64,000 nucleotides of DNA. It comes from an uncultured Acidobacteriaceae bacterium. Lineage in GTDB: Bacteria > Acidobacteriota > Terriglobia > Terriglobales > Acidobacteriaceae. This document shows positions 11,538 to 60,277 of this stretch, piece after piece. The translations under genes and the position numbers were made by a program. The DNA is taken from positions 39,670-103,669 of the forward strand of contig CAVYZB010000010.1 in NCBI GenBank assembly GCA_963772895.1, given 5' to 3'. Every line of letters begins with the position of its first letter. The stretch's first letter is position 1. Below the pieces are notes generated by a model. That model worked only from the letters and a program-made list of their open reading frames with translations. It ran no database searches and was not told where the DNA came from.

Positions 11538-11615
11538 AAATCGGCTCCCAAACCACAGCCGTGCGCCGAGCCACTTCCGACCGACGCCACAACCCATGGC
11601 CACAAGGAGGTCACC

Positions 11616-39611: not shown

Positions 39612-40628
39612 ATGCGCGTTTGCGTAACTGGCGGCACAGGTTTTTTGGGCGCGGCCCTGGTGCGAGACTTGCTGGCCCGCAAAGTTCCCGTCCGGGTTTT
39701 AGCCCGGCCTTCCCAGCGTGCCGATCTGCTGGAAACGCACGGCGCGGAGGTTGTGCGTGGAGGATTGGAAGATGCAGACAGTATCGCCCGAGCGGTTGAT
39801 GGGGTTGACGTTGTCTATCATCTCGCAGCCAAGGTCGATACTCCCGGCAGCAGGGCGGATTTTCTTAAAACCAATTTGAGCGGAACAGAGAGGGTCCTGA
39901 CCGCATGCCTCCGACAAGGGGTTAACCGCGTCGTATATTCCAGTTCACTGGCAGTCTACGGCCCGGTCCGCAACGGCCAGCCAATCGACGAGGCAACTCC
40001 CTACGATGAGTCGCCGCAGCTGCGCGACTTTTATGCCGAGTCGAAAATCCTGGCGGATAAGTTTGCCGTCAGCTTCGCACAAGAAACGGGATTACCGTTA
40101 ACCATCGTCAGGCCCGGCATCGTCTATGGTCCAGGCAAGCAACTTCCGGTGGGCCTGCTGGGATTCACGCTGGGGAAGAGCAACTTCGTATTCGGCAATC
40201 CGAATAACCGCATTCCACTGAACTACGTGGAGAATCTGGTCGATGCGTTGCACCTGGTCGTTCATTCCGCGAGTGATGAGCAACTCCAGCAATTCAATAT
40301 CCTCGATGACGACGAACTCACCCTGGCGAAGTACCACGCGGCGAGAACGGAGGTAGACAAAACGACAACTCATTTTTTCGCAGGTTGGCCGGTGCTTCTT
40401 GCGGCGCCTTTCGCGGAAGCCATCCTGCGAGTGACGCCAAACGGCGGCAGCGTGCGGTTTTCAAGGCACCAACTGAAGCGAGCGCTGCAGGATCGCTGGT
40501 ATGACACGCATCGAATCCGCGAGCAAACCGGCTGGGCACCGAAAGTGCCGCTGAAAGAAGCGCTGTATCGCACATGGAGAAATGGCGCGAATCGTTCAAC
40601 CAAACCTGGACTGGGAGACGGAAGTTAG
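39612..40628 (+). CDS. NAD(P)-dependent epimerase/dehydratase-type extended SDR (3-beta-HSD-like)
   Basis: The protein starts MRVCVTGGTGFLGAALVRDLL and has the catalytic ...YAESKILADK... (YxxxK). It is convergent with the PPTase gene, with a 4-nt overlap. Confidence 0.75.
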   Translation: MRVCVTGGTGFLGAALVRDLLARKVPVRVLARPSQRADLLETHGAEVVRGGLEDADSIARAVDGVDVVYHLAAKVDTPGSRADFLKTNLSGTERVLTACLRQGVNRVVYSSSLAVYGPVRNGQPIDEATPYDESPQLRDFYAESKILADKFAVSFAQETGLPLTIVRPGIVYGPGKQLPVGLLGFTLGKSNFVFGNPNNRIPLNYVENLVDALHLVVHSASDEQLQQFNILDDDELTLAKYHAARTEVDKTTTHFFAGWPVLLAAPFAEAILRVTPNGGSVRFSRHQLKRALQDRWYDTHRIREQTGWAPKVPLKEALYRTWRNGANRSTKPGLGDGS

Positions 40629-41395
40629 GACGCACTAGAGGCAGTAGGAGTCGGGATCTCTAAGAAAATCGGCGGGGCGGGCGAAGGAGAGGCGACTACG
40701 GTTCGCACCAGATCACCCGTATTTTGCCACCACCCATAAAAGGTCTTGCCACCCTCATAAATGACGTGCAGCGGGCGCCAGCTGTTGAAGCTATCGGAGC
40801 GTAACGCGAAGGAAGAGTCTTCTGCGTGGTCTTCGTCTCCCGGCTGCGCCGGACGGCCGGGATGAACTATCACGCTGCGGGTATCGATCCGAAGCCCGGT
40901 CCGCAGCGCTTTCAGGGTGCTTTCCTTTGCACTCCAGAGCAAGGCCAAGAGCTGCGGGCGATCGGACGCGCGCGTCCTCTCAATTAAGGCTCGCTCTCCA
41001 TTCGTGAAGTAGTCGGCAATAAATGCATCGCTACGGGTCTCGATCACTTCCAGATCGCAACCTAGTTCCGTATTCGACGACGCGATGGCACATGCAGCAA
41101 CACCGGCGCGGTGGCTGAGCGAAATGGTAATCGCCGCTGGTTTGTTCGCCACAAAAACTTCTGGCGCGCCGGACGCCGCCGGCCGTACCTCGATATCCGC
41201 AAGGGCACGCGGATGGCTGGGGAGCTTCCAGTAAATCGCCAGCGCGCGTTTCCCCGTCCATCGGCCCAACCGCCAGTCGGCGTGGCGCTTGGCGAAACGC
41301 ATACCGTCCAGTCGAGTCGCTTCGCTGGCGCTTAACCAATCACTCTCCGACGGTACTTCGGCTTCGGTCTGTTCGAGCCAATACAGGTCCATCAT
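40625..41395 (-). CDS. 4'-phosphopantetheinyl transferase, Sfp/PfaE type
   Basis: A 256-aa protein with ...ISLSHRAGVAACAI...GCDLEVIE...LWSAKESTLKALRTGL... (PPTase motifs 2 and 3). Its start overlaps the carboxylase stop (ATGA at 41392-41395). Confidence 0.8.
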   Translation of the reverse strand: MMDLYWLEQTEAEVPSESDWLSASEATRLDGMRFAKRHADWRLGRWTGKRALAIYWKLPSHPRALADIEVRPAASGAPEVFVANKPAAITISLSHRAGVAACAIASSNTELGCDLEVIETRSDAFIADYFTNGERALIERTRASDRPQLLALLWSAKESTLKALRTGLRIDTRSVIVHPGRPAQPGDEDHAEDSSFALRSDSFNSWRPLHVIYEGGKTFYGWWQNTGDLVRTVVASPSPAPPIFLEIPTPTASSAS

Positions 41396-44300
41396 GCTTG
41401 TCCGATGCCAGAGATCATGAGTATCTCCTCAACGGGCGCCTCTTTCCGTAAATGACTTCCGGCTTGTACCTCCCTGACTACCGACTCCTCCGTCTTTCTC
41501 ATGCCGCGTTCGACGGCATCGATGAGGTATGGGCGAAGACTTGCCGGCGGAATAATACGATTCAGAGCACCTACCCTGAGCGCCCGATGCACACTATGTA
41601 CGCGATCGAACTCCTCAGCCATCTCACCCAGCTTCTCCGAGTGTACGACTTTGAAAAGTTCGTTCCATTCAGCGCGCAGCCGGGCCTTCTCCTTGCCGTC
41701 GGCCTTAGCCATTGCTTGGGTCAGCGCTTCCACTCGCTCGTCCTTACGGGCCCGGGATTCGACCTCGCTGGAAAACACGACGGCCGCCGCGGGTGCGCCA
41801 CCAATGACAGAAGCGTAAGTTCCCTCCAACGCTACTACCTCGAGCTGCTCGTTCAGCGCCCGCGAGAAAACTACATACGCGCCCCCGTGATAGCGGGAGA
41901 TCACGCAAAAGATCATGGGGCCTTTGAAGTTGACCACGGCCCGCCCAATCTGCGCGCCGTACTCAAGCTGTAGCTTGCGCATCGACTCGGGCGATCCGTC
42001 AAACCCCGACAGATTGGCCAGAATAACTACTGGCCGATTATTGCTGGCCGCATTGATCGCTCGAGCCAACTTCTTGGAGGAGAGAGGAAAGAGCGTCCCA
42101 GCACTCCATTGGTCGGGTCCATCTGCCGGGACAAATCCTAAGCGGGGGACCTGCTTGGATTCGATGCCGATGAGGCAAACCGGATAGCCGCCGAGATGGG
42201 CATCCCAAACCACTGCAGTTTCGGCGCCCCGCATGCCGGGCCAGCGTTCCAGTGGACAAAGATCCTGGTCTACAACTGCCCGCATCACGCTGCGAATGTC
42301 GAAGGACTTCTTCCGCCCGGCGTTGGTGTCGTCGGAGAAAATCTCGCCCACTCGAGCGAAACCGTTGTCAGAACCGGTGCCGTGCGGGTATGTCTGCACA
42401 TCGCGGTCAATGGGGTCGTTGGTGGCGGACCGCCGCGGGAATCGCTCGCCCGGCGCTACGTAGGTGTGCTCATAATGGCGCAAAAGAATGTGGCAGGCTT
42501 GATCGATGTCGCGCGCCCAATACTGCGCCTGGCCGTTGATGCCCATGATGCGATCGTACCCGCCGATACCTTCGTTGTCTTCGGCCGAGACGCTGCCCGA
42601 GTAGTCAAGGGCACGCTTGCCGGTGAGCACCATTGCCGCTTTCGGCGTCATGATCAGAATGCCGCGGGTATGCATGAGCATGGTCGCTTCGGCGTTCCAA
42701 TAGGGCTGTGCTCCGACGTTGATCCCGTTGATCACCAGATTCACTTCGCCGCCTGCCTGCGTGAACTCGACCAGGCGACGCAGGACGCGGGCAATCCAGT
42801 CCATGTTTTCCACGCCGCTTTCCATCGAGATCTTCGCGCCGGCCGAGATCGGAAACCACTCCAGCGGAACGCGCATCTGCTCGGCAAGATCCAGGGCTGC
42901 AAGGATGCGCCGGCATTCGGGTTCAGCGAGTGCGCCCAGATCGCCGCTCGGATCGCCTAACAGCAACACCCTCGTCATGCCCTCGGGATACTTGGCGGTA
43001 AAGTTGCGGATGACGCCAACGATGATGTTGGATTTATTTTGTCCCGGCGCACGATCGACCGGTATCAGACGACCTTCTGAATCAAGATCGTGCTCCAGAA
43101 AATCGCCGGGGGGGAATTCCGCGCGAGTATTCTCGCGGGCAGGCGTCAGCATTTTGATGATTTCGTAGGGATAGATGAGTCCCCGCCGGCGCATTCGAAC
43201 TACCTTCTGGTTGTACTCGGTCAACGGTTTCATCAGTTGTAGCGTGCTAAGCGGCCGGAAGGTCATAAGCAGGCCCGCGTCGCCGGGCGCCGAAATGCGC
43301 ATCACCATATCGCGCAATTCGCCGGTCTGCGGATTGGGAATACAAGCGCGGACTACCACTTGTTCTAAACCCAGGCCATCCGTCGACGAGGCCAGTTTGT
43401 GTGCAATATCGTTTAGTTCATCCGGTTTGAGGTCGAAAACCGGCCAAACGTAAAGAAAGATCCGATTCCAGTAGAGACGCTCGTGAGCGGCGCGCCGCGA
43501 CTGGAACAGCCGGATGCCCGCTACTGCTTCAGCAAACATGCGCTCCAAGTGCGGCAGTTGCACGATGCGACCTGTATCGTCCCGTACCGGAGTTAAGTCG
43601 CGGACTTCCGCAACCGCAAACAGCCGCTCGTCTTTGGGATTTTCTTTGGCCCTGGCATGCAGGAGATATACGTCTTCAACCGACGGCAGCCGCTCAACGG
43701 TAAAGTTCTTCAAGCGCCACAGATGTAACCGTTCGGCCATCATCGGATGGACTCCGCGGAATAGCTTTTCTTCTTCAAAAGCATTGCCGGAAAACTGATA
43801 AGTGAAATGCTGCATGCCAGCTATGCCTTCACCACAGCCTGGACCAGAGATTGCCACCACGATCCGCTGAATGGGGCGAGGGAAGCAAGCCTGGTTAAGC
43901 CTCGAGCAAACTTCCTGCTGTGTGACCTCTTGCTCAGCCAACGAACCCGACTTCCAAAGATAGAGATCGATAACAATGTCGTGCTCGGCCGGCACGTCCC
44001 CTATGCTAGGACACATTGCCTGTATCGCTTCCGCGAGCCGATCGTAATCAGCGTGGGCGGCCAGGACGTGGACGCGCCTGCCATCCTTCACATATTCCGC
44101 CGATACACAGGAGTTTCCATTCGCCGGCAAAGGGCGAAAGTTCATGAGTGATTGCCCACGATAATATCGAGACGTAACCACTTCCAGCATCAAGCGGCGC
44201 AACTCGGGGTCCGCGGTGGCAAAGCGGCCCGAGAAGAGGCTCGCCAGTGGTTGCGGACATTCGATCAACGCACTAACTCTCTCGTGCCGGTCCGCGGCTT

Positions 44301-47044
44301 CCGGGTTGGCGGCGAGATAGGCGAGATGATCTTCGGCTTGCGCATAGATCTGTTTACGTGACTGCTCAAACAGCGCCTGCTCGAAGCACCGATAGCGCAG
44401 CTCGCGGGCGAGATGGCAGATGGAGGGAAAAGGCGCGCGGGTGATGGCAATGATCCGGTCCAGCAATAAACGGAACGAGCTCGTCGGCGTGCGTCGCAAG
44501 GCTGTCAACGCGTATCAGACGCCGTTCCAGCAAAGCCAGAATAGGCGCCACTTGCCGCTCGACCCGTTGATGCGACTTGTAGATCCAGAGCAAGCTCTCT
44601 TCCAGTTCGGGCGAGCGGTCCAGCGTCTTCACGCCATAATGAGCGAGGGTGCGCCGGAGCGCGTCCATAAACGCAGGCGGAAGTCCTTCGCCGTGCGTTT
44701 CCAGCATGCGCGAATAAGAAAACAGGTACGCCTCGGTGCTAGGCTCTTCACCACCGGCGGGACCGTGCACGCTCGGCTTCCGGCGAAACAGAGAACATAC
44801 ATCCACAAAAATGTTGAGGATCTCATCTTCGCGGCGGACTAATTCGTCGCTGTCCGCTGCGGCTTCATGGAACTGACTCCATTGCGCGAACAGCCGCGCC
44901 GTCTGGGTCGGGTCCGCGTCGAAACCCAGCATGAGGTGCCGCAGTTCTTCCAAATCTTGCCGCCAGCGAGGTTGATTACAAGGTTCGTTCGTGGTCGGCG
45001 TCTCATCAAACACCACCCGCTGCGTTGTTGCCGACGGCTGGTCATCCGCGGTGGCTTCGATTTGCACCAGTGCATCGCCGGCCGCTACCTGCACGTGCGG
45101 TATCGTCATTACTTGCCGCACTTTTCCGGAAAACGGCGCCACAACCGCCATCTCCATTTTCATTGCTTCCAACACAGCCAAGGTATCGCCGACGGTGACC
45201 GTATCGCCCGGCTTTACGGCGATGGATACGACCACCGACGGGCCTGGCGCGCGCACCACTCCACCGTCATCTCGATTGATCGAGTGCGACACGCCGTCCA
45301 CTTCGATCCGGTAATTTACTCCTTGGACTACAGAAACGAGGTGGAAGCGGCGCCCGAAGGCGGTGAGCCAATATTCAAACTTGCCCAGGGGGTGGATGAG
45401 AGCTTCGATGCATGATCCATCCACTTCTACGCGGTACTGATGGGGGCCGAGGCAACAAATCCTGAGAGAGTAGCCTTGTCCTCGATAGCGCAGTTCCACG
45501 GTTCGGCCCAGCTCATTCCGAACGTGTGGGCGTCCGCGGACGGCTGAAGCGTAGAACTGCGACTGTTCCACCGCCAACTCGGTGGAGTAGGCCTCGATCG
45601 CGGCCTGCACCAGCGCCACCTGCGCGTGACGCCTGGAACAGTGCTCGCCGTTCGCCGCCAGACGGTCCAGCCATCCGATATCAACTTCGGCTCGCTGTAC
45701 ATCGGGGCGGTTCACCAGGTCCAACAGGAACGCCTTGTTACTGGCTCCGCCTTTGATGACGACAACGCTTTCGCGCAGCACCCGCTGCAGCCTGGAAAGA
45801 GCTTCCTTCCGGTTCTGCCCGTAGGTGATGATCTTGGCGATCATGGAGTCGAACTCCGGTGGGATAGCATCACCCACGGCCACACCGGTATCAATGCGCA
45901 CTCCGGGGCCGGTGGCAAGCCTGAACCGTTCAATCACACCCGGAGCGGGAGCGAATCCGTTTTCCGGATCCTCGGCGTTCAGCCGCACCTCAATCGCGTG
46001 ACCGGTGGTCCGGGGAGGATCGCCTTCCAGACGTCCGCCGCGTGCGACGTGAATCTGAAGCTTGACGAGGTCGAATCCGGTGGTGCGTTCGGTCACTGGA
46101 TGTTCGACTTGCAACCGGGTATTCATCTCCATAAAGGAGAAGCGGTGGCTTTCCGGTTGATACAGGAATTCAACGGTACCGGCGTTGTAATATCCTGCCG
46201 CCTGGCTCAAGCGTACAGCGGCCTCGCGGAGCGCCTGATCTTGCAGGATAGTAAGCGCGGGCGAGGGCGCTTCTTCAAGGACTTTCTGGTGGCGGCGTTG
46301 AATGGTACAGTCACGCACTCCGACCGCCCACGTGGTCCCGTACTGATCGGCGATGACCTGCACCTCAACGTGACGTGCCCCCAAAACCAGTTGCTCCATG
46401 AAAACGGTGGCATTGCCGAAGGCCTTGAAGGCTTCCGCGCGCGCACCTTCAAAGGAAGTCAGGAGTTGGGCCGCGGAGTTCACGCGACGAATGCCGTGAC
46501 CACCGCCTCCCGCGGTGGCCTTAATCAGGAGCGGATAGCCAAGGCGCTCGGCATGACGCTTTGCGTCAGCGAAGGTTTCCACCGACCCGCCGCTCCAGGG
46601 CGCTACCGGTATCTGGGCCTGCTCGGCCAGAAGTTTCGAGGCAATCTTGTCGCCCAGACGGCGCATAACATCACCATCCGGGCCGATGAACACGATACCG
46701 AGCTTGCGGCAAAGGTCTGCGAACTCGGGGTGCTCCGCGACAAAACCCCATCCCACCCAGACCGCCTCCGCGCGGGCTGCCGTCAACGTCCGTTCGAGCA
46801 AGTCATAATCGACGTAACTGCTCTTGGGATGGCCCGTGACCGGGTCCTTGAGGAAAGCGGCACCGAGAGACACCGCTTCGTCGGCCTCGCAAACGAACAT
46901 AGCGTGGCGATCGGGCTCAGTGTAGAGCGCAATGGTACACAACGATGTGCCGTTCTCTTGATTGAACTCGCGTGCCGCATGTATGAAGCGCATCGCGGCT
47001 TCGCCGCGATTGACAATGGCGACGCGTTGAAATTCGTGCTGCAT
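41392..47044 (-). CDS. single-chain multidomain biotin-dependent acyl-CoA carboxylase (BC - BCCP - central region - CT), frame-disrupted near 44468-44482
   Basis: ORF 44366..47044 carries biotin carboxylase (VAIVNRGEAAMRFIHAARE..., ...PLLIKATAGGGGHGIRRV...) and a biotinyl domain (...LAVLEAMKMEMAV...). ORF 41392..44508 carries the carboxyltransferase domain and has no proper start (TTG right after an in-frame TGA). The junction ...THADELV|RLLLDRIIAIT... is restored by removing 1 nt. The span is 5653 nt (3n+1). Confidence 0.85.
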
Positions 47045-47083
47045 AAAGTCTCCTCAACCGACCGGCCAGATCAATTGCATTGA

Positions 47084-50000
47084 CTACGCCATGACGGCGT
47101 GCAGTGTTTTGAAGGCTTCAGCATTGAGGCCGTCAGGCATCGCCGCCGTACGGTAGCCGAAGAGCCGCAGGTAGCAATTCCCTTTCGCGTCCACGACCTC
47201 GGCATCGAAGCTTGCTTGGTTCGGATTGGGAGTGACGACCGCATACAACTGGCTCTCCGCCAAAGCTGGCGCACGCAAAAAGGAAACTTCGTGAACCGCC
47301 AGTGGCAGACCAAACCGGTTTTGCATACTCATTTCCCAGAGGCCGGCAGTCTGGAAGCAGAGCTCGATCAGCCGTGGCGCCATAAGCGTCGGCTGGTCGG
47401 ATGGCCGGTGGCTTCCCGGAAGGCCTTTAGCCATCGCTCCAACTATCTGTTTTCCATCCCACCAAGCCCGCTCCAGGACTTGGTAAGCCGGTCCGTGGAA
47501 ATAGACGCGATAAATATCAGCAGCTTCGATGAACGAGTCAGCCGACGTCTGCGGCGTCTTCCCGGTTACAGGTGTCGGTGTCTGTTTCGAAAGCCGCACG
47601 CGGGCGGTGAAGTGAACGGTTTCTTGCGGCTCCGGGTGGTTGGGTAAGGTGCGCCGCCCGATGAGTCGGCAATCTGCGACCAAGCTGTCACCTTGCGGGC
47701 GGTACGCGGCTTGCACGGTCACCGTGCGCGGCTCATCGCGGTAGAACTTGAACGGCGACAGGAAATTCACCTCTTCCACCGCCTCGACATGCCAACCGGG
47801 AAGCACGCATAAGGCGGCTTCCGCGAAGCCTTCGATTCCCATGACACCCGGCAGTACTGGCGTGCCGTCGATGCGATGATCGTACAAGAACGGTTGGAGC
47901 TTCGGATCGAGGGTCGTCTCCATCGTCAGGCCGCTGTGAACGCCCATTCCTGTGACCTTGCCGACCATGGGCCCCTGCGCCGGTGTTTGCTTTCCGGCAA
48001 CGGCTGCAAATGCGTCAGTGTCGAGCCCGCCTGTGCAATCCCACTCGCCCAGCAGAACGCCAAGACGCTGACCAACTACAACCTCACCCCGCGTACCTCC
48101 CGATGTTAGTTCGCGGCGAATCCAAGGAATTCCCGCTTCAGGTGGCAGCATGTCGATGCCCGCCAGCTCCATCATCTTCGGGATGGAGCCGCGCGTTGCC
48201 ATTCCGATACCGCCCCACGCCGACCAGTCAAGGGCAATGCCACGCGTCAGTGGCCGCGTCGTGCGGAAGCTCGACGTGATCTTGCACAACAGATCGTTGG
48301 CTGAGCTGTAGTCCGTCTGCCCGCCATTGCCAAACCGTCCTGCAACCGAACTAAATGCTACAGTCGCTCCTAGCGGCATGTCGCCGATGGCCCGCAGCAG
48401 ATTGAACCAGCCGTCGCTCTTCACGTCGAAGACAAGATCGAATTCGCGTGGATCCTTGTCCGGCAGGAAGTGACTGCGCTCGATTCCCGCAGCGTGCAGC
48501 AGCACATCAATGCGGCCGTTGCGCTGACGCACTTGGTTGACGATATTGACCACCGCAGCCGTATCCGTAAGGTTGACGCTGAAGTAGTGCGCTGTCCCCC
48601 CCGCAGCGCGCACCGCGTCGATGGCGCTGTTGGCGGCATGCGCCCGCTCCAGTGCGGCCAGCTCCTTTTCGACCAGCGCCGGAGTGGCCCGCTCGCCGCG
48701 CGCCTGGATGCGCGCGAACAGATCGCGCTTCAGGCCATCTTTATCGGTCACAAAGCGCGCGAGGTCGGGATTATTCGGATCGGGTTCAGGCACCAGATCA
48801 AGCAAGTAGAACGTGCCACCAGAAGCTGCCGCCAAGTCAGCGGTGATAGCCGAGACGATACTTCCCGCCGCGCCAGTGATGAGAAAGACAGTCTCTGTGT
48901 TCAGAGTCAGGCCGGGCTGTCCATCGGCTACGGGCTGTTCTCGCAGGCCAACTGTCCAGCGCTGGCCGTCCTTGTAGCCAACTTCGACTACTCCAGGGTC
49001 GCGCAGAGTTTCCTCAACAAGCAGTTCGGCAACCTCTGACGTCTTGGATTCGGCCTCGAAATCGACCGCCTTGACAAGGGCGTCGAGTCGTTCCCGCTTA
49101 TAAGTTTTGGTAAAGCCAGTTACCGCGCCACCGAGCGGCGCAAGCGCTCCTGCCTCGTCGTATCCATGCTGCCCGCCCAGTCTCGTGGCGGATACCAGGA
49201 ATGTGCCCGGTTGTGCGACTTGGTCGAACAGAACCCGCATGGTGGTATAAAGCAATTTCACTCGTATCTGCAGCGCCTCATGCCATGCAGGCAAATCCAT
49301 CGTGCTGATTGATCCTTCGTAATCCAGCGCTGGAAGCCAATAGACTCCTTGCACCGGACCGGAGGCCAGCCAGCCTTGGAGGCGTTTGGCCAGCGTATCT
49401 GGATCGCGCGCGTCCTCGATCGCGAGGACTTCGACTCCCTTTGCCTGTAGCTGTAGGGTCAATGCCTTCGCCACCCCGCCTTTGTCGGGCATGATTACCA
49501 CACGGCAACCCGCGCCAAGTTTTACGCCAGTGGGTTTGCACAGGTTAAGCGGCGGCCGCAAGTTGGGCACCGGTACCCGACGTGGAATGGCATCTGCCGC
49601 ATCGAAGTTCGCGACTGGCGGCCGTGCAAGCTTAGCCGCTGCCACAGCAGGTGTTGCCGAAACGGCTGCGACCGACACTGCTATCCGCCGCCGGTCCTGT
49701 GCGAATTGAATAACATGGGCCAGGGTCGGGAATTCGCGCAGCTTGAGATTCTCATCACGCGGGATGTTATATGCCGCTCGAATGGCAGCGAACATCTCCG
49801 CCTGCTTGACGGTGTCGATGCCGAGGTCCGCTTCGAGATCAAGATCGAGGTCGAGCATGTCCTTGGGATAGCCGGTCTTCTCCGCTACGATGTCGAGCAC
49901 CTTCTCCTTAATGGAGTCATCCGTAACCGTCGCGGGCACGACAGCGGCCGGCTCCGGAACGGTTGGTTCAGCGATAGCTGACGACGCCTCAGGCTTGCCC

Positions 50001-53000
50001 GCCAGGTCGGGGCGCTTGTCATATACGAATTGGATCACGTGCGCTAGGGTGGGGTAATCGCGCAACTTACGATTCTCATCGCGCGGAATGTTGTAGATCT
50101 CGCGGATGGCGGCGAACATCTCCGCTTGCTTCACGGTGTCCACACCGAGGTCGGCTTCCAGATCAAGATCGACATCCAACATGTCTTTGGGATAGCCGGT
50201 CTTTTCCACCATCAATTCGAGAATGCGTTCCTTCACGGACTCGCCAGCGCCGCTTTCGGGAGATGTCACTACAGGCGGCGCGGAGGGCTGGGTCACGACC
50301 GGCATAACAGACGCCGCTGGCTCGCTGATCGTCGGAGATGATGAAGGCGTACCGGCCAAGTCTGGCCGTTTGTCATAAACGAATTGAATCACGTGCGCCA
50401 GGGTGGGGTAATCCCGCAGCTTACGATTCTCATCGCGTGGAATGTTGTAGATTTCCCGAATCGCCGCGAACATTTCCGCCTGCTTGACGGTGTCCACACC
50501 GAGGTCGGCTTCCAGATCAAGATCAACGTCCAGCATGTCTTTCGGGTAGCCAGTTTTTTCGACCATCAGTTCGAGAATGCGTTCCTTCACTGACTCGCCA
50601 GCCCCGTTGTTAGGAGTTGCCACGGCTGGTGGTGTTGTCAGTTGGGGCGCAACCGGCGTAGTCGGGGCCGCTGGCTCGCTAGTCGTCGCAGGTGATGAAG
50701 GCGTACCGGCGAGGTCTGGCCGCTTGTCATACACGAATTGAATCACGTGCGCCAACGTAGGGTAATCGCGCAGCTTGCGATTCTCGTCGCGCGGGATGTT
50801 GTAGATCTCGCGAATTGCCGCGAACATCTCTGCCTGTTTGACCGTGTCCACACCGAGATCGGCTTCCAGATCAAGATCGACATCCAACATGTCTTGCGGA
50901 TAACCGGTCTTCTCCACCATCAAAGCAAGGATGCGCTGCTTCACGGAATTGCCAGCGCCGTCGGCCGGCGATGTTACCGGCGGCACTGCTGGTCTCGGTT
51001 GCGTCGCGACGGGAGTCGGCGCTGGTGCAGGCGCCTCGGTCGTTTTCGGCGAGGGAGGAGTACCGCCGGCCAAGTCCGGCCGCTTTTCGTACACGAACCG
51101 AATCACGTGCGCCAACGTGGGGTAATCGCGCAGCTTGCGGTTCTCGTCGCGCGGGATGTTGTAGATTTCGCGAATGGCGGCGAACATCTCCGCCTGCTTG
51201 ACCGTGTCCACGCCGAGGTCGGCTTCCAGATCAAGATCGACATCCAACATGTCTTGCGGATAACCGGTCTTCTCCACCATTAATGCAAGGATGCGTTCCT
51301 TCACCGATTCGGCGGCGCCACTCTTAGGAGGCACAGCGGGTGTCGCCGCAGGAACCTTCGTTACTTCCTTCACCGTCACTCGCGTGGCCGATGCCGTCAC
51401 GGCCGGTGTTTGTTCTTTGAGCGGTTCGGGTTTCGCCACGGGCTTTTGCGTTGCAGAGGCCGCGGGTGGGGCAGGTTGGGCCTGAACTTCGGGCTTGGAG
51501 GGCTGCTTGGGATTAGGCGCCGACACAGACGCGGAGTCTTTAGCGACTCCTGCAATCCGCGCCGCCAACCCTTGATCTGGCACCCGCAGTGTGCGATGGA
51601 CCACTTCCAACTCAGCGACCGGACGCCCCGCCATGCGGCTTAGCCAAGCGTTCCAGGCGCCCTTGTCGGCAATACGGTAGGAGTAGCCGAGCGCATTGGG
51701 ACTGCGACGAATGCCGTCCTTGGTCGGCAGCCACTTCAACAAAATCATGCTAATCTGTGAACCGAAACCGGCGCCCAAATGCATTGCGTACTGCACGGGA
51801 TAAGGGCCGCCCTTCGACAGGTTCAGGAGCCCCAGCTCGGGATCGACTTCCTTGAAGTTAGCAACGGGTGGCAGCAATCCCGTTTCCAGCGCCTTCACGG
51901 CGAGGACATCTTCAATGCCAGTCCCCATGGCGTGACCAGTCATGCCTTTGGTGTTGGCAATTACGACTTGATCCGCGCTGTCGCCGAAGATGCGACGCAG
52001 TGCATGGATCTCCGCCGAAGCGCTGCCACCACGAGCAGGGGTATAGGTCTCGTGCGACACGAAAACCATTTGCGGAGCTATTTCGTTGCGGGTAACCCCC
52101 GTGCGCGTTTCGACTCGGCTTACCAGGTCCTCCATCACCTGGCCGATGTGCTGGACATCGAGGCGAGTGCCGTGAAATGCGCTATTAGCCGTCACTGTCC
52201 CCAGCACCTCGCATATCGGCTGGATTCCGCGTTCACGGGCTGCATCCAAACTCTCAATCACGAGCGCGGCGGCGCCCATGCCCATAATCATGCCGTGCCG
52301 GCGGCGGTCGAAGGGAACAGCAGCGTCTTCCACCTTTTCATCCGTGGCTGACGTTCCGCTGGCCAAAAATCCGGCGCCCATCCATCCCATCAGGTGGTCC
52401 GAGGTGACATCGTCGGCCGAGATGACGATCACGCGGCGGCACCGTCCGGCGCGGATCCAGTCCTGTGCCAACGAAACCCCTTGAGCAGTGGTCGCGCATG
52501 CGGAATTGATTTGCGTGTTGGGACCGCGCGCGCCGATGAGCTCGGCAAACTGCGAGTGTCCCATCGACAAAACTCTCAGCAGGAAGCGCCGGTCGAAGAC
52601 GTAGTTTTCTTTCTCGATTGTGCTGCGCAACTCCTCGATGCGCCGGTCTAATTCTTGCCCCAGGTCCGAATGGCCATTCCCCGCCGCATGGAGACGCAAA
52701 CCCTCCAGCAAAGCCAACTGTTCGCGGCGCTCATGGTCTTGGTAATAGCTCCCTAATATGTCAGCGAAGGAGTCATAACCCGGGAAGGCCGAGCCGAAAA
52801 TTACGCCGGTGTCGTCACGCATAGCGTCCGGCAGTCCCCAACGGTCAGGTAACTGCGTACCTTTGGTCGTGGTCTTATAACGCATGACCAGGGGGATGCC
52901 AGCGTCACGTAGCGCGTCGATTCCCGCGCCGATCGCCAGCCGAGTAACCTGGTCGAAGGCGGCGAGGTGCTCGGTGGGAACGCCGAATTCACTTTCCAAA

Positions 53001-56000
53001 TCGAAAGCGCCCCCGCGACCTGCTAGCTTGATGACGTCCGCCACATCCGTAATGGACTCGAAAGTGGGCTCTCCCTTCTCGCTCTTAACCAAACGTCTGA
53101 TGCGCTTGTCCACCATCTCCTGGCGGAAGCGCGCGGGGATCGGAGCTGATGAATTGATCGCCGCGCAAGATGCGTTCGAGGTTGCCGTCGTCGAAGATGC
53201 GCTCGGTTCCAGGTAGACCCAGGGATGCTCCCGTGATGCCAACTTGAAGATTCGCGCTGGCAGAAGTGTCGCCGTGATGCCAGCCCGCGCGTTCCAAGGT
53301 CTCGGTCAACAAACGGCCGAGCTCGTCATATCCATGACCGTTCGAACGAGTTGCCGGTGTCGGAAAAGCAGCCGGAACGGAAGCCACCACCGGCATTGGT
53401 TTGGTCTCGTTCGCTGCCACAGAAGGCGCAGGTCTCACTGGGATATCGACCGCCACGTCGGGCCGCCCATAGCCCAATCCCGCCGCGTAAAGTCCGCACA
53501 GCGCCTGGTTGAAAGCCGGAATGTCCCCGAATTTGGGATGGTTCGTGAACAGCGAAACTACGTCGCCGCGATTGCCAAGCACTTCTTCGGCAAATCCCTG
53601 CAACGCCTTCTTCGGCCCCACTTCAACGAAGATTCGCGCGCCCGCATCGTAGAGCGTGTTCAAGCCTTTCACGAACTGTACCGGCGAAGCGACCTGCTGC
53701 GCGAGAAGCTCCAGCATCTGCGGGACAACATCAGGTCCGTTGGGATAAAACTCGCCATTTACGTTGGCGACCACTGGCACAAGAGGTGGCCGTACGTTCA
53801 GGTGCGATAGCATTTCGCGTAGAGGCTCACTGGCAGGAGCCACAATCGAGGTGTGGAAGGCGTGGCTCACCGGCAAGGGGGCCACGTCGTACCCAGCTTG
53901 CAGGAAGATCTGTATGGCTTGTTCGACTGCCTGGCTGGCGCCGCCGATGACCGACTGCTGACCGCTGTTCACGTTGGCGATCACAACATAGCCGTCAATG
54001 GTCTTCAGGATTCGCTCGACTTCAGCAAGCGGCGCAAAGACCGCCGCCATCTTTCCGGTATCTTTCACGGCCACTTTCGTCATGCCCCGACCGCGGGCGC
54101 TGACTGCCGACAATGCGTCCTCGAAGGTGAGCGAGCCCGACGCGACTAAGGCGCCGTATTCGCCCAAGCTGTGTCCCATGGTCATGTCAGGCTGGATGCC
54201 GTAAGCGTCCAACAGCCGGGTCAGCGCGAGGTCGATCGTCAGCACGGTGGGCTGAGTAATCTCGGTCTGGCGCAGATCTTCTTCCGCTTTCGCAACAGCG
54301 TCCGGGTTAGTTTTGTCCACGAAGACAAACTCGCTCAATGGCTTGCCGAGCAGCGGAGTCATGATGCGGTCCGCTTCGGCAAACGTCTTGGCTACGATTG
54401 GTTCGGCAGCGCGGAGAGGCTCCAGCATGTTGACGTACTGCGAGCCTTGCCCGGTGTACAGGAACGCCACTTTGCCGGCAGTACCGCTTCCACGGAAGAT
54501 ACCTTGTGGACGCAGGGCCTTCCAGATGGGAGGTTGATTGGCTTTCAGCGCCTTCAGCGCCTTGGCCGACTTGTCGGCCAGGTCAGCGGCATCGGCGTAG
54601 TCAATCGCCAGCCGTTCCGGAGCTCTCAGGTCCGATTCCGCTGGAGCCGTTGGTGCTGGTGCACGACCTGCCGCAGCGTCTTTTTGTACTGCCTGCAGCC
54701 GATTGGCGAGTTCTGCCTCCGACGCCGCGCCGATCACCAGTGCGCCGCGTAACGGAGCTTTGCCGGAGACGGCCTCGACTGATGGAACCACAGCGGTTGC
54801 CACAGGTACAACAGCCGCCACGCTGACCGTCTGCTGCGCCACAACTGGCGATGGCGCGGTGACTGCTACCGAATGCTTGCCATTTCCGTTAAGCTTGCCG
54901 GGTATGTACTCTTCGAGGACGGCGTGGAAGTTGGTGCCGCCAAAGCCGAAGGCGCTGAGCCCGACTCGCCGCGTGCCATCCGCGGGGACCGTCCACGGTC
55001 GCAACTCGGTGTTGACATACAGAGGGGAGCGAGCAAAGTCAATGGCCGGGTTGGGATGTTTGAAATTCAGGCTGGGCGGCAACATCTTATCGCGCAGCGC
55101 CAGCGTTGCTTTCAGCAATCCAGCCGCGCCCGCGGCTCCTTTCAGATGCCCAATGTTCGATTTAACAGAGCCCAGTGCCACCGACCCGGCGGGGAGATTC
55201 AAATTGCCGAACACATCGGCCATGCTTTGCAATTCAATCGCGTCGCCCACGCTGGTCGACGTGCCATGGCCTTCCATCAACGTACCGGCGGTCGGAGATA
55301 ACCCGGCATTTTGCCAGCCTCGCTCGATAGCCAGCTTTTGACCAATCGGGTTGGGCGCCGTAATTCCCTTTTCCCTTGCCGTCGCTGGCACCGCCGATAC
55401 CGCGCAGCACGGCGTAGATCTTGTCCCCATCGTGCTCGGCATCGGCCAAGCGCTTGAGCAAAAAGATCGCCGCGCCTTCGCCCATTACGAAACCATCGGC
55501 TCCCTCCGCGTAGGGACGGCTATCGATCGCCGAGAGCGCCCCGATCTTGCAAAACTTAACGAAGGTGGGGGCTCCCATGTTGCGATCGATCCCGCCGCAG
55601 ACCGCCACGTCAAAGTCATTCGCCACTAGCCCTTCGACCGCCGAACTGATGGCCGCCATTGCCGATGCACACGCTGCATCGCACACATAATTGGGCCCGT
55701 GAAAGTTGTAGATATTTGCAATGCGGCCGGCAATGCAGTTGGCCAATTCGCCGGGCATGCTGTCTTCTGTAATTTCAGGGAGGAGCTTGGCCATGCGGTC
55801 GTGCAATTCGCGCGTGATGTCTCGACGTGCTCCCGCCGGCAACGCGGCGAAGGTGGCGCTATCCGCCAACTCACGAGCGTATTCCGGAAAGTGCACGCGC
55901 AATGAGGTGAGGTAATGTCTTTCTCCAGCCATGGCATTGCCTAGAATCACTGCAGTGCGATCAAGATTCAGCGGCCGCTTAGGATAGCCATAGTCTTCCA

Positions 56001-56319
56001 ACGCTTCGCGGGTAGACGCGATGGCCCATTTTTGGGCAACGTCCATGGCATCGACTACGCGGGGCGGGATAGGCAGGTGCCATTTCATGGGCTCCCACAC
56101 GTATTCCCGCACCCAGCCACCAATCTTCGAGTAGGTCTTGTCGGGCGCGCTGTGATCGGAATCGTAATAAAGCGCCGGGTCCCAACGGTCGGATGGAACC
56201 TCGCTGATGCTGTAACGGCTGTTCTTCACGTTTTCCCAGAAAGCCGGTACGTTCACGGCATCGGGTAGAACTGCCCCTGCGCCCACAATCGCAATGGCAC
56301 GATGAGCGGTGTTTTCCAT
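47084..56319 (-). CDS. PUFA-synthase (PfaA)-like type I megasynthase, KS - AT - KS - 5xACP - KR - PS-DH; two 1-nt frame disruptions as sequenced (about 55362-55378 and about 53135-53160)
   Basis: KS1 (56319 to about 55000) has ...[11 protein letters not shown]..., ...[12 protein letters not shown]... and ...[13 protein letters not shown].... AT (about 54500-53600) has ...[10 protein letters not shown]... and ...[11 protein letters not shown].... KS2 (about 53230-51700) has ...[12 protein letters not shown]..., ...[11 protein letters not shown]... and ...[11 protein letters not shown].... Five ACP-like repeats lie at 51310-49691. KR (about 49400-48100) has ...[15 protein letters not shown]...YSSANDLL.... 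DH (about 47950-47084) has ...[14 protein letters not shown].... The total is 9236 nt (3n+2). Confidence 0.9.
49691..51310 (-). repeat. five tandem carrier-protein (ACP-like) coding repeats inside the megasynthase
   Basis: Equivalent CATGTC positions lie at 51248, 50888, 50534, 50180 and 49856, giving periods of 360, 354, 354 and 324 nt. The core unit is EKTGYP(Q/K)DMLD(V/L)DLDLEADLG(V/I)[13 protein letters not shown].... Pro/Ala/Thr-rich linkers sit between the units. Confidence 0.9.
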
Positions 56320-58422: not shown

Positions 58423-58444
58423 TGTCGGTGCCTCTCTTTGCTTC

Positions 58445-59428: not shown

Positions 59429-60216
59429 TAGTTCAACCCTCCTTTGGCCTTCATTAACTCAATCAGTTTGGCGATGACTTCTTCCCGGTCGCCTGCGAGC
59501 ATCTCGGCGCCCTTGCCGAGCGCGGGAACGAAGTAGTCCACCCGTTTGACCTTCGCTCCGGCATTCCCGACTGCACTTGCATCCACACCGAGGTCGGAAG
59601 CGCTGAAGGTCGGAACATCTACCGCCGCGACCTGCCGAATGCCTCGCATCCCGACGTAACGCGGCTCGTTGATGCCGGTCTGAATCGAGAGCACACAGGG
59701 GAGATCGATCTCGTTCATCTCCTTGTTGCCGCCTTCGATCTCGCGGCTCACCTTCAGCTTGCCGCCATCAACCGCAATGGAATTCACCAGAGAAGCGAAG
59801 GGATAGTCGAGCAGGGCCGCCAGCATTCCACCTACTTGGGCGCCGCCGTCCTCGGCCTGGACTCCGGTCAGGATCAGGTCGTAATGGCCCTTCTGCACGA
59901 ACGACTTCAAAGCCGTCGCAATTCCCTTGCCGTCCGATCCCTCGAATGCTTTGTCGGAAATCAACACGCCACGGTTTGCGCCCATGGCCATCTCTCGGCG
60001 CAGGACTTCCTCGTCGTCGTCGCTGCCGACCGTAACCACCGTGACCGTGCCACCGGCCTTGGCGGTGATCTGCAGGGCCTCTTCGACGGCGTAGTTGTCG
60101 GGTTCGTTGATCGAATAGACCAGATCGTCACGTTCGATATCGTTCCCGGCAGTGTTGAGTTGAATTTCGTTTTCCGAAGTGTCAGGTACTCGTCGTACGC
60201 AAACTAGAATTTCCAC
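59428..60216 (-). CDS. etfB: electron transfer flavoprotein subunit beta
   Basis: GTG at 60216 follows GGGGAG and gives VEILVCVRRVPDTSE..., the canonical EtfB N-terminus. The longer track ORF start adds 18 atypical residues. Confidence 0.9.
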   Translation of the reverse strand: MEILVCVRRVPDTSENEIQLNTAGNDIERDDLVYSINEPDNYAVEEALQITAKAGGTVTVVTVGSDDDEEVLRREMAMGANRGVLISDKAFEGSDGKGIATALKSFVQKGHYDLILTGVQAEDGGAQVGGMLAALLDYPFASLVNSIAVDGGKLKVSREIEGGNKEMNEIDLPCVLSIQTGINEPRYVGMRGIRQVAAVDVPTFSASDLGVDASAVGNAGAKVKRVDYFVPALGKGAEMLAGDREEVIAKLIELMKAKGGLN

Positions 60217-60277
60217 AGTTGCACTCCCCAATGGATTTGGTTCGAAAGTTATTGACCAGGTTCTACGCAAAAATGTT

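What the first reader, a model, noticed from the sequence alone, without database searches (positions are those of the whole stretch)
40625..56319. Non-canonical PUFA-synthase-like operon: a single ~3078-residue KS-AT-KS-5xACP-KR-DH protein plus single-chain carboxylase plus PPTase, with no PfaB, PfaC or PfaD partners in view
Once the two frame errors are bridged, one polypeptide carries these domains in order:
- A canonical KS (DAACAS, HGTST, NIGH).
- A malonyl-type AT (GHSLGE).
- A second KS with an intact Cys-His-His set (NSACATT, SHETYTP, GHAMG) and a long N-terminal insertion.
- Five tandem carrier domains.
- A KR and a PKS-type DH (HxxxGxxxxP).

A 39-nt gap then leads to the BC-BCCP-CT carboxylase, whose stop overlaps the Sfp/PfaE-type PPTase start (ATGA). 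Classical Pfa and heterocyst-glycolipid systems need a KS-CLF pair, FabA-type DHs and a PfaD enoyl reductase. None of those is within about 15 kb on either side. An ER-less iterative synthase with its own malonyl-CoA supply and activator would be predicted to make a polyene, poly-hydroxy or beta-hydroxy long-chain product. The flanking genes (GT21, SDRs, sulfoquinovose and GT-C genes, MacB permease, ABC exporter) would fit export as a glycolipid-like envelope component. I cannot assign this architecture to a described product.
Basis: partly seen in the sequence, partly recalled or inferred. Interest (0 to 1): 0.8.

Follow-up and report, generated by a model that had tools for sequence, protein, structure and literature searches.

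The report
Orphan PfaA-like lipid synthase operon
This is an acidobacterial copy of a widespread giant fatty-acid/polyketide synthase operon, first catalogued in 2011 and still without a known product, and it has two overlooked oddities: a conserved flavoprotein partner, and threonine where every known carrier domain has serine.

Summary
On the minus strand, 56319-47084 encodes a 3077-aa KS-AT-KS-5xcarrier-KR-DH protein once two +1 insertions are bridged. Its stop overlaps an Sfp-type PPTase gene.

The architecture is not undescribed. It is the "Type R" secondary lipid synthase of Shulse & Allen 2011, in the Koribacter variant with a carboxylase between the pfaA and PPTase homologues. Its product is still unknown. 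The frameshifts are sequencing errors, because Illumina MAG orthologues are intact.

New points:
1. A VLCAD-like acyl-CoA dehydrogenase sits directly upstream in about 125 of 136 related loci. In distant relatives the same slot holds a fused FabK/PfaD-type ER, an OYE or a FabI. The system is therefore probably not ER-less. In Acidobacteria, EtfAB and a membrane FeS protein join the operon.
2. Every carrier domain has Thr, not Ser, at the phosphopantetheine site (596 of 601 motifs).
3. KS2 keeps its Cys-His-His triad, so it is not a CLF.
4. The flanking glyco genes are not conserved with the cluster.

Verdict: a new member of a known orphan kind. The family itself is worth an experiment.

The parts
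60278..62407 (-). Membrane-anchored Fe-S oxidoreductase (EtfD-like), 709 aa. It has 4-5 N-terminal TM segments, two 4Fe-4S motifs and a C-terminal CCG domain. It is the first gene of the acidobacterial operon.
   Evidence: Pfam CCG and Fer4; NCBIfam TfrB/GlpC-like hits, all below cutoff; hydropathy and sequence. The same gene sits at the same place in L003 and L016.
59428..60270 (-). Electron transfer flavoprotein beta subunit (280 aa).
   Evidence: Pfam ETF 6.6e-45; PDB matches. The gap to the FeS gene is 7 nt, and the gene abuts etfA.
58445..59428 (-). Electron transfer flavoprotein alpha subunit (327 aa).
   Evidence: Pfam ETF_alpha/ETF; PDB matches. It is conserved upstream of the ACAD in most acidobacterial loci.
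56737..58470 (-). VLCAD/ACAD9/Bacillus-FadE-length acyl-CoA dehydrogenase (577 aa; the real start is probably the ATG at 58422). It keeps the catalytic Glu in IYEGTSEI and has a C-terminal domain of about 170 aa. It is the candidate trans-acting enoyl reductase of the synthase.
   Evidence: Pfam Acyl-CoA_dh_N/M/1; PDB. Orthologues of 55-93% identity lie directly upstream of the PKS in about 125 of 136 loci. Their identity tracks KS2 identity (r=0.83).
47084..56319 (-). PfaA-family iterative type I synthase, 3077 aa after removing two +1 insertions (about 55362-55365 and 53141-53144). Approximate domain coordinates: KS1 56307-54909; AT 54596-53619; KS2 53246-51638; five Thr-type carrier domains 51295-49613; KR 49330-48038; PKS-type DH 48010-47087.
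   Evidence: The intact orthologues are 2959 aa (L003) and 2967 aa (L016). The L003 orthologue scores 1125.6 against the TIGR02813 cutoff of 1010.1.
51638..53246 (-). KS2, a FabF-like ketosynthase. Cys, His, His and Lys are invariant (motif HETYTP instead of HGTGTP). The N-terminal half is diverged and holds a helical hairpin insertion. It is not a CLF.
   Evidence: Invariant C251/H399/H439/K434 in A1. Residue-level alignment to FabF. Foldseek top hits are all FabF, but the model is low confidence.
49613..51295 (-). Five tandem carrier domains with the core motif LEADLG(V/I)DTVKQAE. Thr (codons ACG/ACC) replaces the universal phosphopantetheine-bearing Ser.
41392..47044 (-). Eukaryote-like single-chain carboxylase BC-BCCP(EAMKME)-ACC_central-CT, 1883 aa after removing one +1 insertion at about 44472-44475.
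   Evidence: Pfam; NCBIfam; junction check. Intact orthologues are 1890 and 1876 aa. Yeast and human ACC are among the PDB hits.
40625..41395 (-). Sfp-type 4'-phosphopantetheinyl transferase (256 aa). Its start overlaps the carboxylase stop (ATGA).
   Evidence: Pfam ACPS; weak HetI hit in NCBIfam. It always follows the PKS or ACC in relatives. It is fused to the C-terminus of the PKS in 39 representatives.

Best explanation
The locus is an acidobacterial copy of the 'Type R' secondary lipid synthase cluster. Three steps are shown by sequence:
1. One PfaA-family megasynthase (KS1-AT-KS2-5 carriers-KR-DH) builds an acyl chain iteratively from malonyl units. The AT has the malonyl-type GHSLGE/HAFH motifs.
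2. A dedicated eukaryote-like single-chain acetyl-CoA carboxylase makes the malonyl-CoA.
3. A dedicated Sfp-type PPTase activates the carrier domains.

Three further steps are inferred from comparative genomics:
1. The VLCAD-like acyl-CoA dehydrogenase encoded directly upstream is a fourth core component. It most likely supplies the enoyl-reduction step that the megasynthase lacks. In Acidobacteria it would draw electrons through the co-operonic EtfAB and the membrane FeS (EtfD-like) protein. The product would then be a long, at least partly saturated acyl chain rather than a polyene.
2. The dedicated, often fused, PPTase exists because the carrier domains carry Thr instead of Ser at the attachment site. 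Housekeeping PPTases probably do not accept Thr.
3. KS1 and KS2 are both catalytic and probably divide the elongation cycles between them.

The three frameshifts in the window are sequencing errors. The chemical identity of the product and its release mechanism are unknown; no TE or offloading AT is present.
For: Identity with Type R: the domain order and the pfaA-ACC-PPTase gene order match the description in PMC3098273. The orthologue passes the PfaA subfamily cutoff.

Intactness: Illumina MAG orthologues are single ORFs. The closest long-read MAG is shattered in the same way as the window. The junctions are colinear. Another frameshift lies in egtB elsewhere in the window.

ACAD as a core partner:
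- It is directly upstream in 120 of 136 loci under strict criteria, plus 5 fragmented cases.
- These include four loci of 65-70% GC that lack ETF genes and a relative with 47% KS2 identity, with a 32-nt gap.
- The orthologues are 55-93% identical over the full length, including the C-terminal domain, and the catalytic Glu is invariant.
- ACAD identity tracks KS2 identity (Pearson r=0.83, n=120).

The ER slot:
- 13 of 62 full-length representatives carry an N-terminal NMO (FabK/PfaD family) domain fused before KS1, as do L100, L134 and L168.
- L088 has an OYE gene in that position.
- L093 has a FabI-like gene 21 nt upstream.
- ACAD and NMO never co-occur.

Malonyl-CoA supply is a recurring theme. 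Relatives carry a single-chain ACC, a CT-BC-BCCP gene set, or a fused AccD/A gene.

PPTase linkage: it is always adjacent, and it is fused in 39 representatives.

Thr carriers: 313 of 313 and 283 of 288 motifs, and 61 of 62 representatives. Thr aligns to the Ser of solved ACPs. E. coli ACP S36T cannot be modified (PMC3340395).
Against: - No ACAD-family enzyme is known, to my knowledge, to reduce carrier-bound enoyl thioesters. ACADs normally oxidise.
- The EtfD-like partner points to the quinone pool, which is the usual direction of beta-oxidation.
- The ETF subunits could not be assigned to the bifurcating or non-bifurcating type.
- In the window and its closest relatives, the ACAD-PKS gap is 330-500 nt, so the two may be separate transcripts.
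- OYE and FabI each rest on a single locus.
- Some relatives (L086, L089, L128, L146, L090) show no reductase next to the PKS.
- Nothing here shows the product, expression, or modification of Thr.
Confidence: 0.6

Rival explanations
1. This is an ER-less iterative synthase, so each cycle stops at the enoyl or hydroxy stage. The product is a polyene, poly-hydroxy or beta-hydroxy chain. The flanking GT21, SDR, GT-C and MacB genes attach it to sugars and export it as an envelope glycolipid.
For: No ER domain lies within the PKS, and no PfaD, FabI or OYE gene was found in the window. The enediyne PKSE (KS-AT-ACP-KR-DH-PPTase) is an ER-less precedent that makes a polyene (my own knowledge). Distant family members have the same C-terminal PPTase fusion. 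A GT21 gene lies next to a KS2 remnant in Nostocoides (L081).
Against: The ACAD is conserved and co-evolving upstream, and three classical ene-reductase families occupy the same slot elsewhere. The window's SDR, GT21, FAD oxidoreductase, epimerase and PMT genes have no homologues downstream of the PPTase in 28 loci, nor in 80 loci. The SDR gene is convergent with the operon.
Confidence: 0.18
2. The ACAD, EtfAB and FeS genes work in the usual oxidative direction. Either they are simply beta-oxidation genes kept next to the PKS, feeding acetyl-CoA to the carboxylase. Or the ACAD dehydrogenates a primer or the released product, introducing a 2-ene, rather than acting as the synthase's reductase.
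For: The ACAD has all the hallmarks of an ordinary long-chain acyl-CoA dehydrogenase. The FeS protein looks like an ETF:quinone oxidoreductase. The intergenic gap in the window is 417 nt.
Against: The ACAD stays glued to the PKS in distant high-GC lineages where the ETF genes are not adjacent, with gaps of 10-150 nt. It diverges in step with the PKS. Plain neighbourhood does not explain why NAD(P)H-type ene-reductases replace it in other branches.
Confidence: 0.18
3. The operon is inactivated. The three frameshifts are real, and the PKS and carboxylase are pseudogenes.
For: There are three +1 insertions within 15 kb.
Against: Each frame stays open for hundreds to thousands of codons on both sides. 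The sequence is 80-87% identical to intact orthologues, with no other lesions. The closest relative is a long-read MAG with even more breaks. Other genes in the window look frameshifted too. All catalytic motifs are intact.
Confidence: 0.04

Closest known systems
Type R secondary lipid synthase cluster (Shulse & Allen 2011, PLoS One 6:e20146), especially Candidatus Koribacter versatilis Ellin345
   Same: One pfaA homologue described as KS-MAT-'CLF'-ACP(3-6)-KR, with a PPTase gene downstream. In Koribacter an acetyl-CoA carboxylase gene sits between the two. It is found in Acidobacteria. The PPTase has the hShxH motif. The product is unknown.
   Different: Nothing essential differs. The 2011 description calls KS2 a CLF, although its catalytic triad is intact. 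It lists neither the DH domain nor the upstream ACAD/ETF genes, and it does not mention the Thr in the carrier domains.
Canonical PUFA synthase PfaABCDE (Shewanella, Moritella, Photobacterium)
   Same: A PfaA-type KS-AT-tandem ACP-KR-DH protein (the orthologue passes TIGR02813). Iterative use of malonyl units. A dedicated Sfp-type PPTase.
   Different: No PfaB, no PfaC (KS-CLF plus two FabA-type DH domains), and no PfaD. An extra catalytic KS lies between the AT and the carriers. The carriers have Thr. The partners are an ACAD and a single-chain ACC. There is no means of making cis double bonds, so PUFA production is unlikely.
Enediyne polyene synthase PKSE (SgcE, CalE8)
   Same: An iterative KS-AT-ACP-KR-DH core related to PfaA. 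The PPTase is integrated at the C-terminus, as in 39 distant members of this family.
   Different: PKSE has a single Ser-type ACP, no second KS, no carboxylase and no reductase partner. It works with a dedicated thioesterase, which is absent here.
Heterocyst glycolipid synthase (HglE/HglD/HglC/HglB) and the Azotobacter ArsA-D phenolic lipid synthase
   Same: PfaA-like secondary lipid synthases that make long saturated or hydroxylated chains for envelope lipids.
   Different: Those systems are multi-protein sets with KS-CLF and separate ER components. They have conserved glycosyltransferase or type III PKS partners. No such partner is conserved here.
Multidomain bacterial acyl-CoA carboxylase SACE_4237 of Saccharopolyspora erythraea (PMC6491548)
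   Same: A eukaryote-like single-chain BC-BCCP-central-CT carboxylase in a bacterium, supplying malonyl-CoA.
   Different: SACE_4237 is the essential housekeeping enzyme. Here the carboxylase is a dispensable cluster accessory. It is absent from 11 of the first 80 loci and is replaced by multi-subunit forms in others.
Reductive ACAD/Etf systems (butyryl-CoA dehydrogenase-EtfAB, caffeyl-CoA reductase CarCDE, acryloyl-CoA reductase)
   Same: ACAD-family flavoproteins that physiologically reduce enoyl-CoA using electrons from ETF. The window ACAD's best NCBIfam hit is acryloyl-CoA reductase AcrC, below its cutoff.
   Different: Those enzymes are about 380 aa, tetrameric and act on short CoA esters. 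This one is the 560-580-aa VLCAD-like class and is linked to a PKS. The direction and the substrate are untested.

Membership tests
Type R secondary lipid synthase cluster (Shulse & Allen 2011) | A single pfaA homologue with KS-MAT-second KS-like domain-ACP(3-6)-KR | tested here: met
   Pfam and motifs give KS-AT-KS-5 carriers-KR(-DH). The same order holds in 62 of 62 full-length representatives.
Type R secondary lipid synthase cluster (Shulse & Allen 2011) | A PPTase gene downstream; in the Koribacter variant an ACC gene lies between them | tested here: met
   ACC at 47044-41392 and PPTase at 41395-40625.
Type R secondary lipid synthase cluster (Shulse & Allen 2011) | The proximal KS falls in the Type R clade of the KS tree | not tested
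Korobacteraceae MAGs are 83% identical in KS2, which is only indirect support.
Type R secondary lipid synthase cluster (Shulse & Allen 2011) | The PPTase carries the P1b' motif hShxH rather than the PUFA-type (F/S)NxSH | tested here: met
   ITISLSHRAG is present in the PPTase translation, and no FNxSH is present.
PfaA subfamily (NCBIfam TIGR02813) | Whole-protein score at or above 1010.1 bits | tested here: met
   The intact orthologue L003 (about 84% identical) scores 1125.6. The window's own largest fragment scores 458.7 because it is split.
Canonical Pfa PUFA synthase | PfaC partner (KS-CLF plus two FabA-type DH domains) | tested here: not met
   None among the ORFs scanned in the window, nor in the roughly 21-kb related loci.
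Canonical Pfa PUFA synthase | PfaD (NMO/FabK-type) enoyl reductase | tested here: not met
   No PF03060 hit in the window. The domain is fused to distant family members only.
Chain length factor (CLF) | A KS-like fold that has lost the active-site Cys | tested here: not met
   Cys (NSACATT), His (SHETYTP), His and Lys (NTKGMTGH) are invariant in 16-18 sequences and align to the FabF catalytic residues.
Acyl carrier domain (PF00550) | Carrier fold and family signature | tested here: met
   PP-binding 1.2e-29. The model's best structural matches are all ACPs, though the model confidence is moderate.
Acyl carrier domain (PF00550) | Ser at the start of helix II as the phosphopantetheine acceptor | tested here: not met
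   Thr in 5 of 5 window domains, 596 of 601 motifs in loci, and 61 of 62 representatives. It aligns to the Ser of PigH and bacterial ACPs.
Eukaryote-type single-chain acetyl-CoA carboxylase | BC, BCCP with the biotinyl-Lys motif, central region and CT on one chain | tested here: met
   PF00289, PF02786, PF02785, PF00364, PF08326 and PF01039. EAMKME is present in the sequence. The orthologues are single ORFs.
Eukaryote-type single-chain acetyl-CoA carboxylase | Acetyl-CoA as the substrate | not testable with these tools
   Inferred only from the malonyl-type AT of the neighbouring PKS.
Sfp-type PPTase | ACPS domain with the Mg-binding and catalytic motifs (GxDxE, WxxKEsxxK) | tested here: met
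   PF01648 7.3e-18. LGCDLEVIE and WSAKESTLKAL are in the translation.
Acyl-CoA dehydrogenase (VLCAD-like length class) | Three ACAD domains, a catalytic Glu in YEGT, and an extra C-terminal domain | tested here: met
   Pfam. IYEGTSEI is invariant. The 577-617-aa PDB relatives are 2z1q, 3owa, VLCAD and ACAD9.
Trans-acting enoyl reductase of a PKS/FAS | Reduces the carrier-bound 2-enoyl intermediate | not testable with these tools
   The evidence is positional only: NMO, OYE and FabI occupy the same slot in other branches.
Enediyne PKSE | KS-AT-ACP-KR-DH-PPTase on one chain, with a partner thioesterase | tested here: not met
   The extra KS2, the multiple carriers and the separate PPTase differ from PKSE. 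No TE was seen in the window ORFs scanned or in the locus gene tables read.

The most novel reading that the evidence does not exclude
This very widespread megasynthase family would use threonine-linked phosphopantetheine on all its carrier domains. That would be a post-translational chemistry not described for any carrier protein. A co-evolved PPTase, adjacent or fused, would install it. In the large clade that includes this window, an acyl-CoA-dehydrogenase-family flavoprotein, wired to ETF and the quinone pool, would have replaced the FabK/PfaD-type enoyl reductase. That would be a new way of powering the reductive step of fatty-acid-like synthesis. The family's breadth: at least 597 relatives among the first 600 pattern matches in the species-representative genomes, and 698 clusters at 50% identity with E<=1e-30.
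Probability: 0.4. Interest if true: 0.8.

Novelty: new member of a known kind. Interest (0 to 1): 0.6.

Why it matters
Secondary lipid synthases of this type were catalogued in 2011, but their products are still unknown. A 2026 survey still lists only a handful of such lipids with known structures (PMC13291983).

This family is among the most widespread of them in soil and peat bacteria: Acidobacteriota, Actinomycetota, Myxococcota and several Proteobacteria. Knowing its product would fill a gap in the lipid biology of dominant soil phyla.

Two features found here make it experimentally attractive:
1. The invariant Thr at the cofactor attachment site. If it is modified, the rule that carrier proteins need Ser would have to be extended, and the dedicated PPTase would be explained.
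2. The acyl-CoA dehydrogenase sits in the position that classical enoyl reductases occupy in related clusters.

Practically, the result also warns that antiSMASH-style 'ER-less PUFA-like' calls for this family are likely to mispredict the chemistry.

Tried and rejected
- Literature. Nine full-text searches found no paper beyond Shulse & Allen 2011 that describes this architecture. None found a paper on phosphopantetheinylated threonine. A peatland BGC paper had no relevant mention.
- Source of the window. An exact look-up of the window's EtfA found nothing on record.
- ETF type. PDB comparison of EtfA and EtfB was inconclusive. The best hits mix bifurcating ETFs (C. difficile, CarDE) with the non-bifurcating Methylophilus ETF. 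It therefore gives no direction for electron flow.
- KS2 structure. The AlphaFold model is poor (mean pLDDT 62). Foldseek still ranks FabF first, but I put no weight on details of the N-terminal insertion.
- ACP model. Confidence is only moderate (pLDDT 68), and the structural matches have weak E-values.
- RNA and signals. Rfam finds nothing in the window. The promoter and terminator scans around the operon ends and in the 417-nt ACAD-PKS spacer are no better than shuffles.
- ACAD-PKS fusion as a Rosetta stone. None was found among 146 representatives.
- Pseudogene reading. Rejected.
- Glycolipid flank reading. Rejected on synteny.
- 'KS2 = CLF', as in the 2011 paper. Rejected on the catalytic residues.


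Full report
**1. What is in the sequence**

Six long minus-strand ORFs fill window 56319-40625. Pfam assigns them as follows.

| ORF (minus strand) | Pfam result |
|---|---|
| 56319-55234 | N-terminal half of a ketosynthase |
| 55442-53085 | C-terminal half of the ketosynthase, the KS-AT linker and an acyltransferase |
| 53242-47084 | Weak second ketosynthase, PP-binding repeats, KR and a PKS-type DH (PKS_DH_N plus PS-DH) |
| 47044-44366 | Biotin carboxylase plus biotinyl domain |
| 44508-41392 | ACC_central plus carboxyltransferase |
| 41395-40625 | ACPS-family PPTase |

- Neighbouring ORFs overlap in different frames at three places.
- Reading the DNA shows that each is a single extra base, at about 55362-55365, 53141-53144 and 44472-44475.
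- Removing them gives a 3077-aa synthase and an 1883-aa carboxylase.
- The three junctions (GKGKG|ITAPNP, QFISS|IPARF, ADELV|RLLLD) are colinear with intact orthologues.
The gap is 39 nt and the ATGA overlap is there.
There are three, and the third is in the carboxylase.

**2. The frameshifts are errors, not decay**

- In two short-read MAGs the orthologues are single ORFs. L003 has a 2959-aa PKS and an 1890-aa ACC. L016 has 2967 and 1876 aa.
- The closest relative, L001, is 92% identical in KS2. It is a long-read MAG, and its gene is broken into many pieces.
- Several other long-read contigs show the same shattering.
- Elsewhere in the window, egtB also looks split.
- By contrast, the break in prfB is the natural programmed one, with CTTTGAC at 20336-20342.
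- The window's PKS is 79-84% identical to L003, and its ACC is 87% identical, with no other lesion.

**3. It is a described cluster type**

Shulse & Allen 2011 (PMC3098273) define Type R as one pfaA homologue, KS-MAT-CLF-ACP(3-6)-KR, followed by a PPTase gene.
- They report it in Koribacter, Solibacter, Elusimicrobium and Roseiflexus.
- They note that in Koribacter versatilis an acetyl-CoA carboxylase gene separates the two. That is this layout.
- The L003 orthologue passes NCBI's PfaA subfamily model, scoring 1125.6 against a cutoff of 1010.1.
- I found no later paper on the architecture.
- A June 2026 survey still names only heterocyst glycolipids, Azotobacter phenolic lipids and zeamine-type compounds as secondary lipids with known structures (PMC13291983).

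**4. How widespread it is**

- The KS2 region finds 1034 proteins in the word-indexed search. The top 120 are 62-91% identical and carry labels from Acidobacteria, Actinomycetota, Myxococcota, Gamma- and Alphaproteobacteria.
- A full HMMER pass over 1.84 billion representatives gives 698 clusters at 50% identity with E<=1e-30.
- All 62 full-length representatives (KS2 36-54% identical) keep the order KS1-AT-KS2-carriers-KR-DH, with 1 to 6 carriers.

**5. KS2 is a real ketosynthase**

- Cys, His, His and Lys are invariant in two alignments.
- They align to the catalytic residues of FabF from residue 224 onward.
- The only oddity in the motifs is HETYTP in place of HGTGTP.
- The N-terminal 220 residues are diverged and hold a predicted helical hairpin. 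The structure model is weak (pLDDT 62), though Foldseek ranks FabF first over almost the full length of the targets.
- The label 'CLF' in the 2011 paper therefore does not fit.

**6.

Directly upstream on the same strand lie four genes:
- a 577-aa acyl-CoA dehydrogenase (56737-58470);
- EtfA;
- EtfB;
- a 709-aa protein with 4-5 transmembrane segments, two 4Fe-4S motifs and a CCG domain, which is an EtfD-like ETF:quinone oxidoreductase by my own knowledge of the Mycobacterium system.

In L016 the seven genes FeS-EtfB-EtfA-ACAD-PKS-ACC-PPTase follow each other with gaps of at most 66 nt.

How well the ACAD is conserved next to the PKS:
- Of 136 related loci with enough upstream DNA, 120 have the ACAD orthologue directly before KS1. 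Five more have it in fragmented or displaced form.
- It is kept in four loci of 65-70% GC, where no ETF gene is adjacent.
- It is kept in a relative with 47% KS2 identity, with a 32-nt gap.
- The orthologues share 55-93% identity over the full length, including the C-terminal domain, and the IYEGTSEI catalytic Glu is invariant.
- ACAD identity to the window rises with KS2 identity (Pearson r=0.83, n=120).
- This is co-inheritance, not chance neighbourhood.

**7. Why I read the ACAD as the missing reductase**

In more distant branches, the position before KS1 is filled by other enzymes that reduce C=C bonds.

| Enzyme in the slot | Where |
|---|---|
| About 700-aa N-terminal NMO (FabK/PfaD family) domain, fused | 13 of 62 representatives, and L100, L134, L168 |
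| Old-Yellow-Enzyme gene, 94 nt upstream | L088 |
| FabI-like gene (FabI models at 1e-77 against FabG at 1e-26), 21 nt upstream | L093 |

- ACAD and NMO never occur together.
- Filling one slot with unrelated families that share one chemistry is the usual signature of non-orthologous displacement.
- ACAD-family enzymes that work reductively with ETF are known: butyryl-CoA dehydrogenase, caffeyl-CoA reductase and acryloyl-CoA reductase (my own knowledge). The last is the window ACAD's best NCBIfam hit, though far below its cutoff.

This step is inference, and it has weaknesses:
- OYE and FabI each rest on one locus.
- Five loci show no reductase at all.
- The EtfD-like protein suggests the oxidative direction.
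- I could not type the ETF.

**8. Threonine carriers**

The core of every carrier domain reads LEADLG(V/I)DTVKQAE.
- HMMER alignments to solved carrier proteins put this Thr on the phosphopantetheinylated Ser (PigH DLGVDSI, ACP DLGADSL).
- In the model, the Thr sits at the first turn of the helix corresponding to helix II.
- Thr is found in 5 of 5 window domains. It is found in 313 of 313 motifs in the first 85 loci, 283 of 288 in the next 84, and 61 of 62 representatives.
- The single exception (P0168/L086) has Ser in all five domains, together with KV instead of KQ two residues on.
- All four Thr codons are used, and Ser is one mutation away. The residue is therefore selected.
- E. coli ACP S36T cannot be modified and is non-functional (PMC3340395).
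- Two searches found no paper on Thr-linked phosphopantetheine.
- The PPTase is always next to the synthase. In 39 representatives it is fused to its C-terminus.
- The simplest reading is that the cognate PPTase modifies Thr. That is untested.

**9. The carboxylase**

- It has the eukaryote-like arrangement, with an ACC_central region and an EAMKME biotinylation site.
- Yeast and human ACC are among its PDB matches.
- A bacterial precedent is SACE_4237 (PMC6491548).
- It is an accessory. It is missing from 11 of the first 80 loci.
- Elsewhere it is replaced by CT-BC-BCCP genes (L128, L146), by a CT gene (L090), or by a fused AccD/A gene (L089).
- Supply of malonyl-CoA is thus a recurrent need of the system. 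This fits a bulk lipid better than a trace metabolite (inference).

**10. The flanks**

- Downstream of the PPTase, the window has a convergent SDR/epimerase, then GT21, an FAD oxidoreductase, another epimerase, a GT-C/PMT_2 protein, AsnB and a MacB-type permease.
- None has a homologue after the PPTase in 28 loci with at least 3.5 kb in view. No gene family there recurs in more than two loci.
- The operon ends at the PPTase, and the glycolipid-export idea has no synteny support.

**11. Verdict**

- The locus is a new member of a known but biochemically orphan kind.
- The best model is a complete, self-supplied iterative synthase. Its reductive step is outsourced to an ACAD, and its carriers use Thr.
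- Both of those points are inferences that simple experiments can settle.

Noticed in passing
window 49613-51295 (-), and all related loci: Carrier domains carry Thr instead of Ser at the phosphopantetheine site (DTVKQAE). Only one lineage (P0168/L086) has Ser, and there the motif is DSVKVAE.
   Followed up: yes
window 15689-17946 (+): Ergothioneine genes. An EgtB-like ORF (DinB_2 plus FGE-sulfatase) stops matching its profile at position 124 of 255. It overlaps by 636 nt an ORF whose C-terminal 300 aa are the EgtD methyltransferase. This is probably another sequencing frameshift inside egtB.
   Followed up: partly
window 19304-20245 (-), site at 20336-20342: The release factor 2 gene lacks its first ~27 profile positions in this frame. 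A CTTTGAC lies about 90 nt upstream on the same strand. This is the classical programmed +1 frameshift of prfB, not an error.
   Followed up: partly
window 27558-29577 (+): A Trans_reg_C winged-helix ORF overlaps a TPR-rich ORF by 200 nt in another frame. This may be one regulator gene split by a frameshift.
   Followed up: no
L081 10001-12905 (Nostocoides australiense HG764815.1): An isolated 601-aa KS2-only fragment, with no KS1, AT, carriers, KR or DH, is followed by a GT21 glycosyltransferase. It looks like a remnant of the cluster. This is the only other place where a GT21 sits next to this family.
   Followed up: no
L082 1-9964: A long-read contig of 69% GC shows two ACAD genes and two partial KS/KR-DH sets ahead of the main cluster. 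This is either a tandem duplication of the cluster or a misassembly.
   Followed up: no
representatives P0154-P0254 (39 proteins), e.g. P0221 residues 3039-3174: In many distant family members the Sfp-type PPTase is fused to the C-terminus of the synthase. This gives KS-AT-KS-ACPn-KR-DH-PPTase, reminiscent of the enediyne PKSE.
   Followed up: partly
L128 3379-6927; L146 818-2822; L090 4996-6636; L089 17380-19002: Where the single-chain ACC is missing, other carboxylase forms sit next to the synthase: CT-BC-BCCP genes, a PccB-like CT, or a fused AccD/AccA.
   Followed up: partly
window 1643-3369 (-): cdsA (CTP_transf_1) and uppS (Prenyltransf) ORFs overlap by about 390 nt, because of a long upstream extension of the cdsA ORF. 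This is most likely an ORF-calling artefact rather than a frameshift.
   Followed up: no
window 11343-14508 (+): Two adjacent ORFs of 332 and 730 aa have no Pfam match at E<=1e-5.
   Followed up: no
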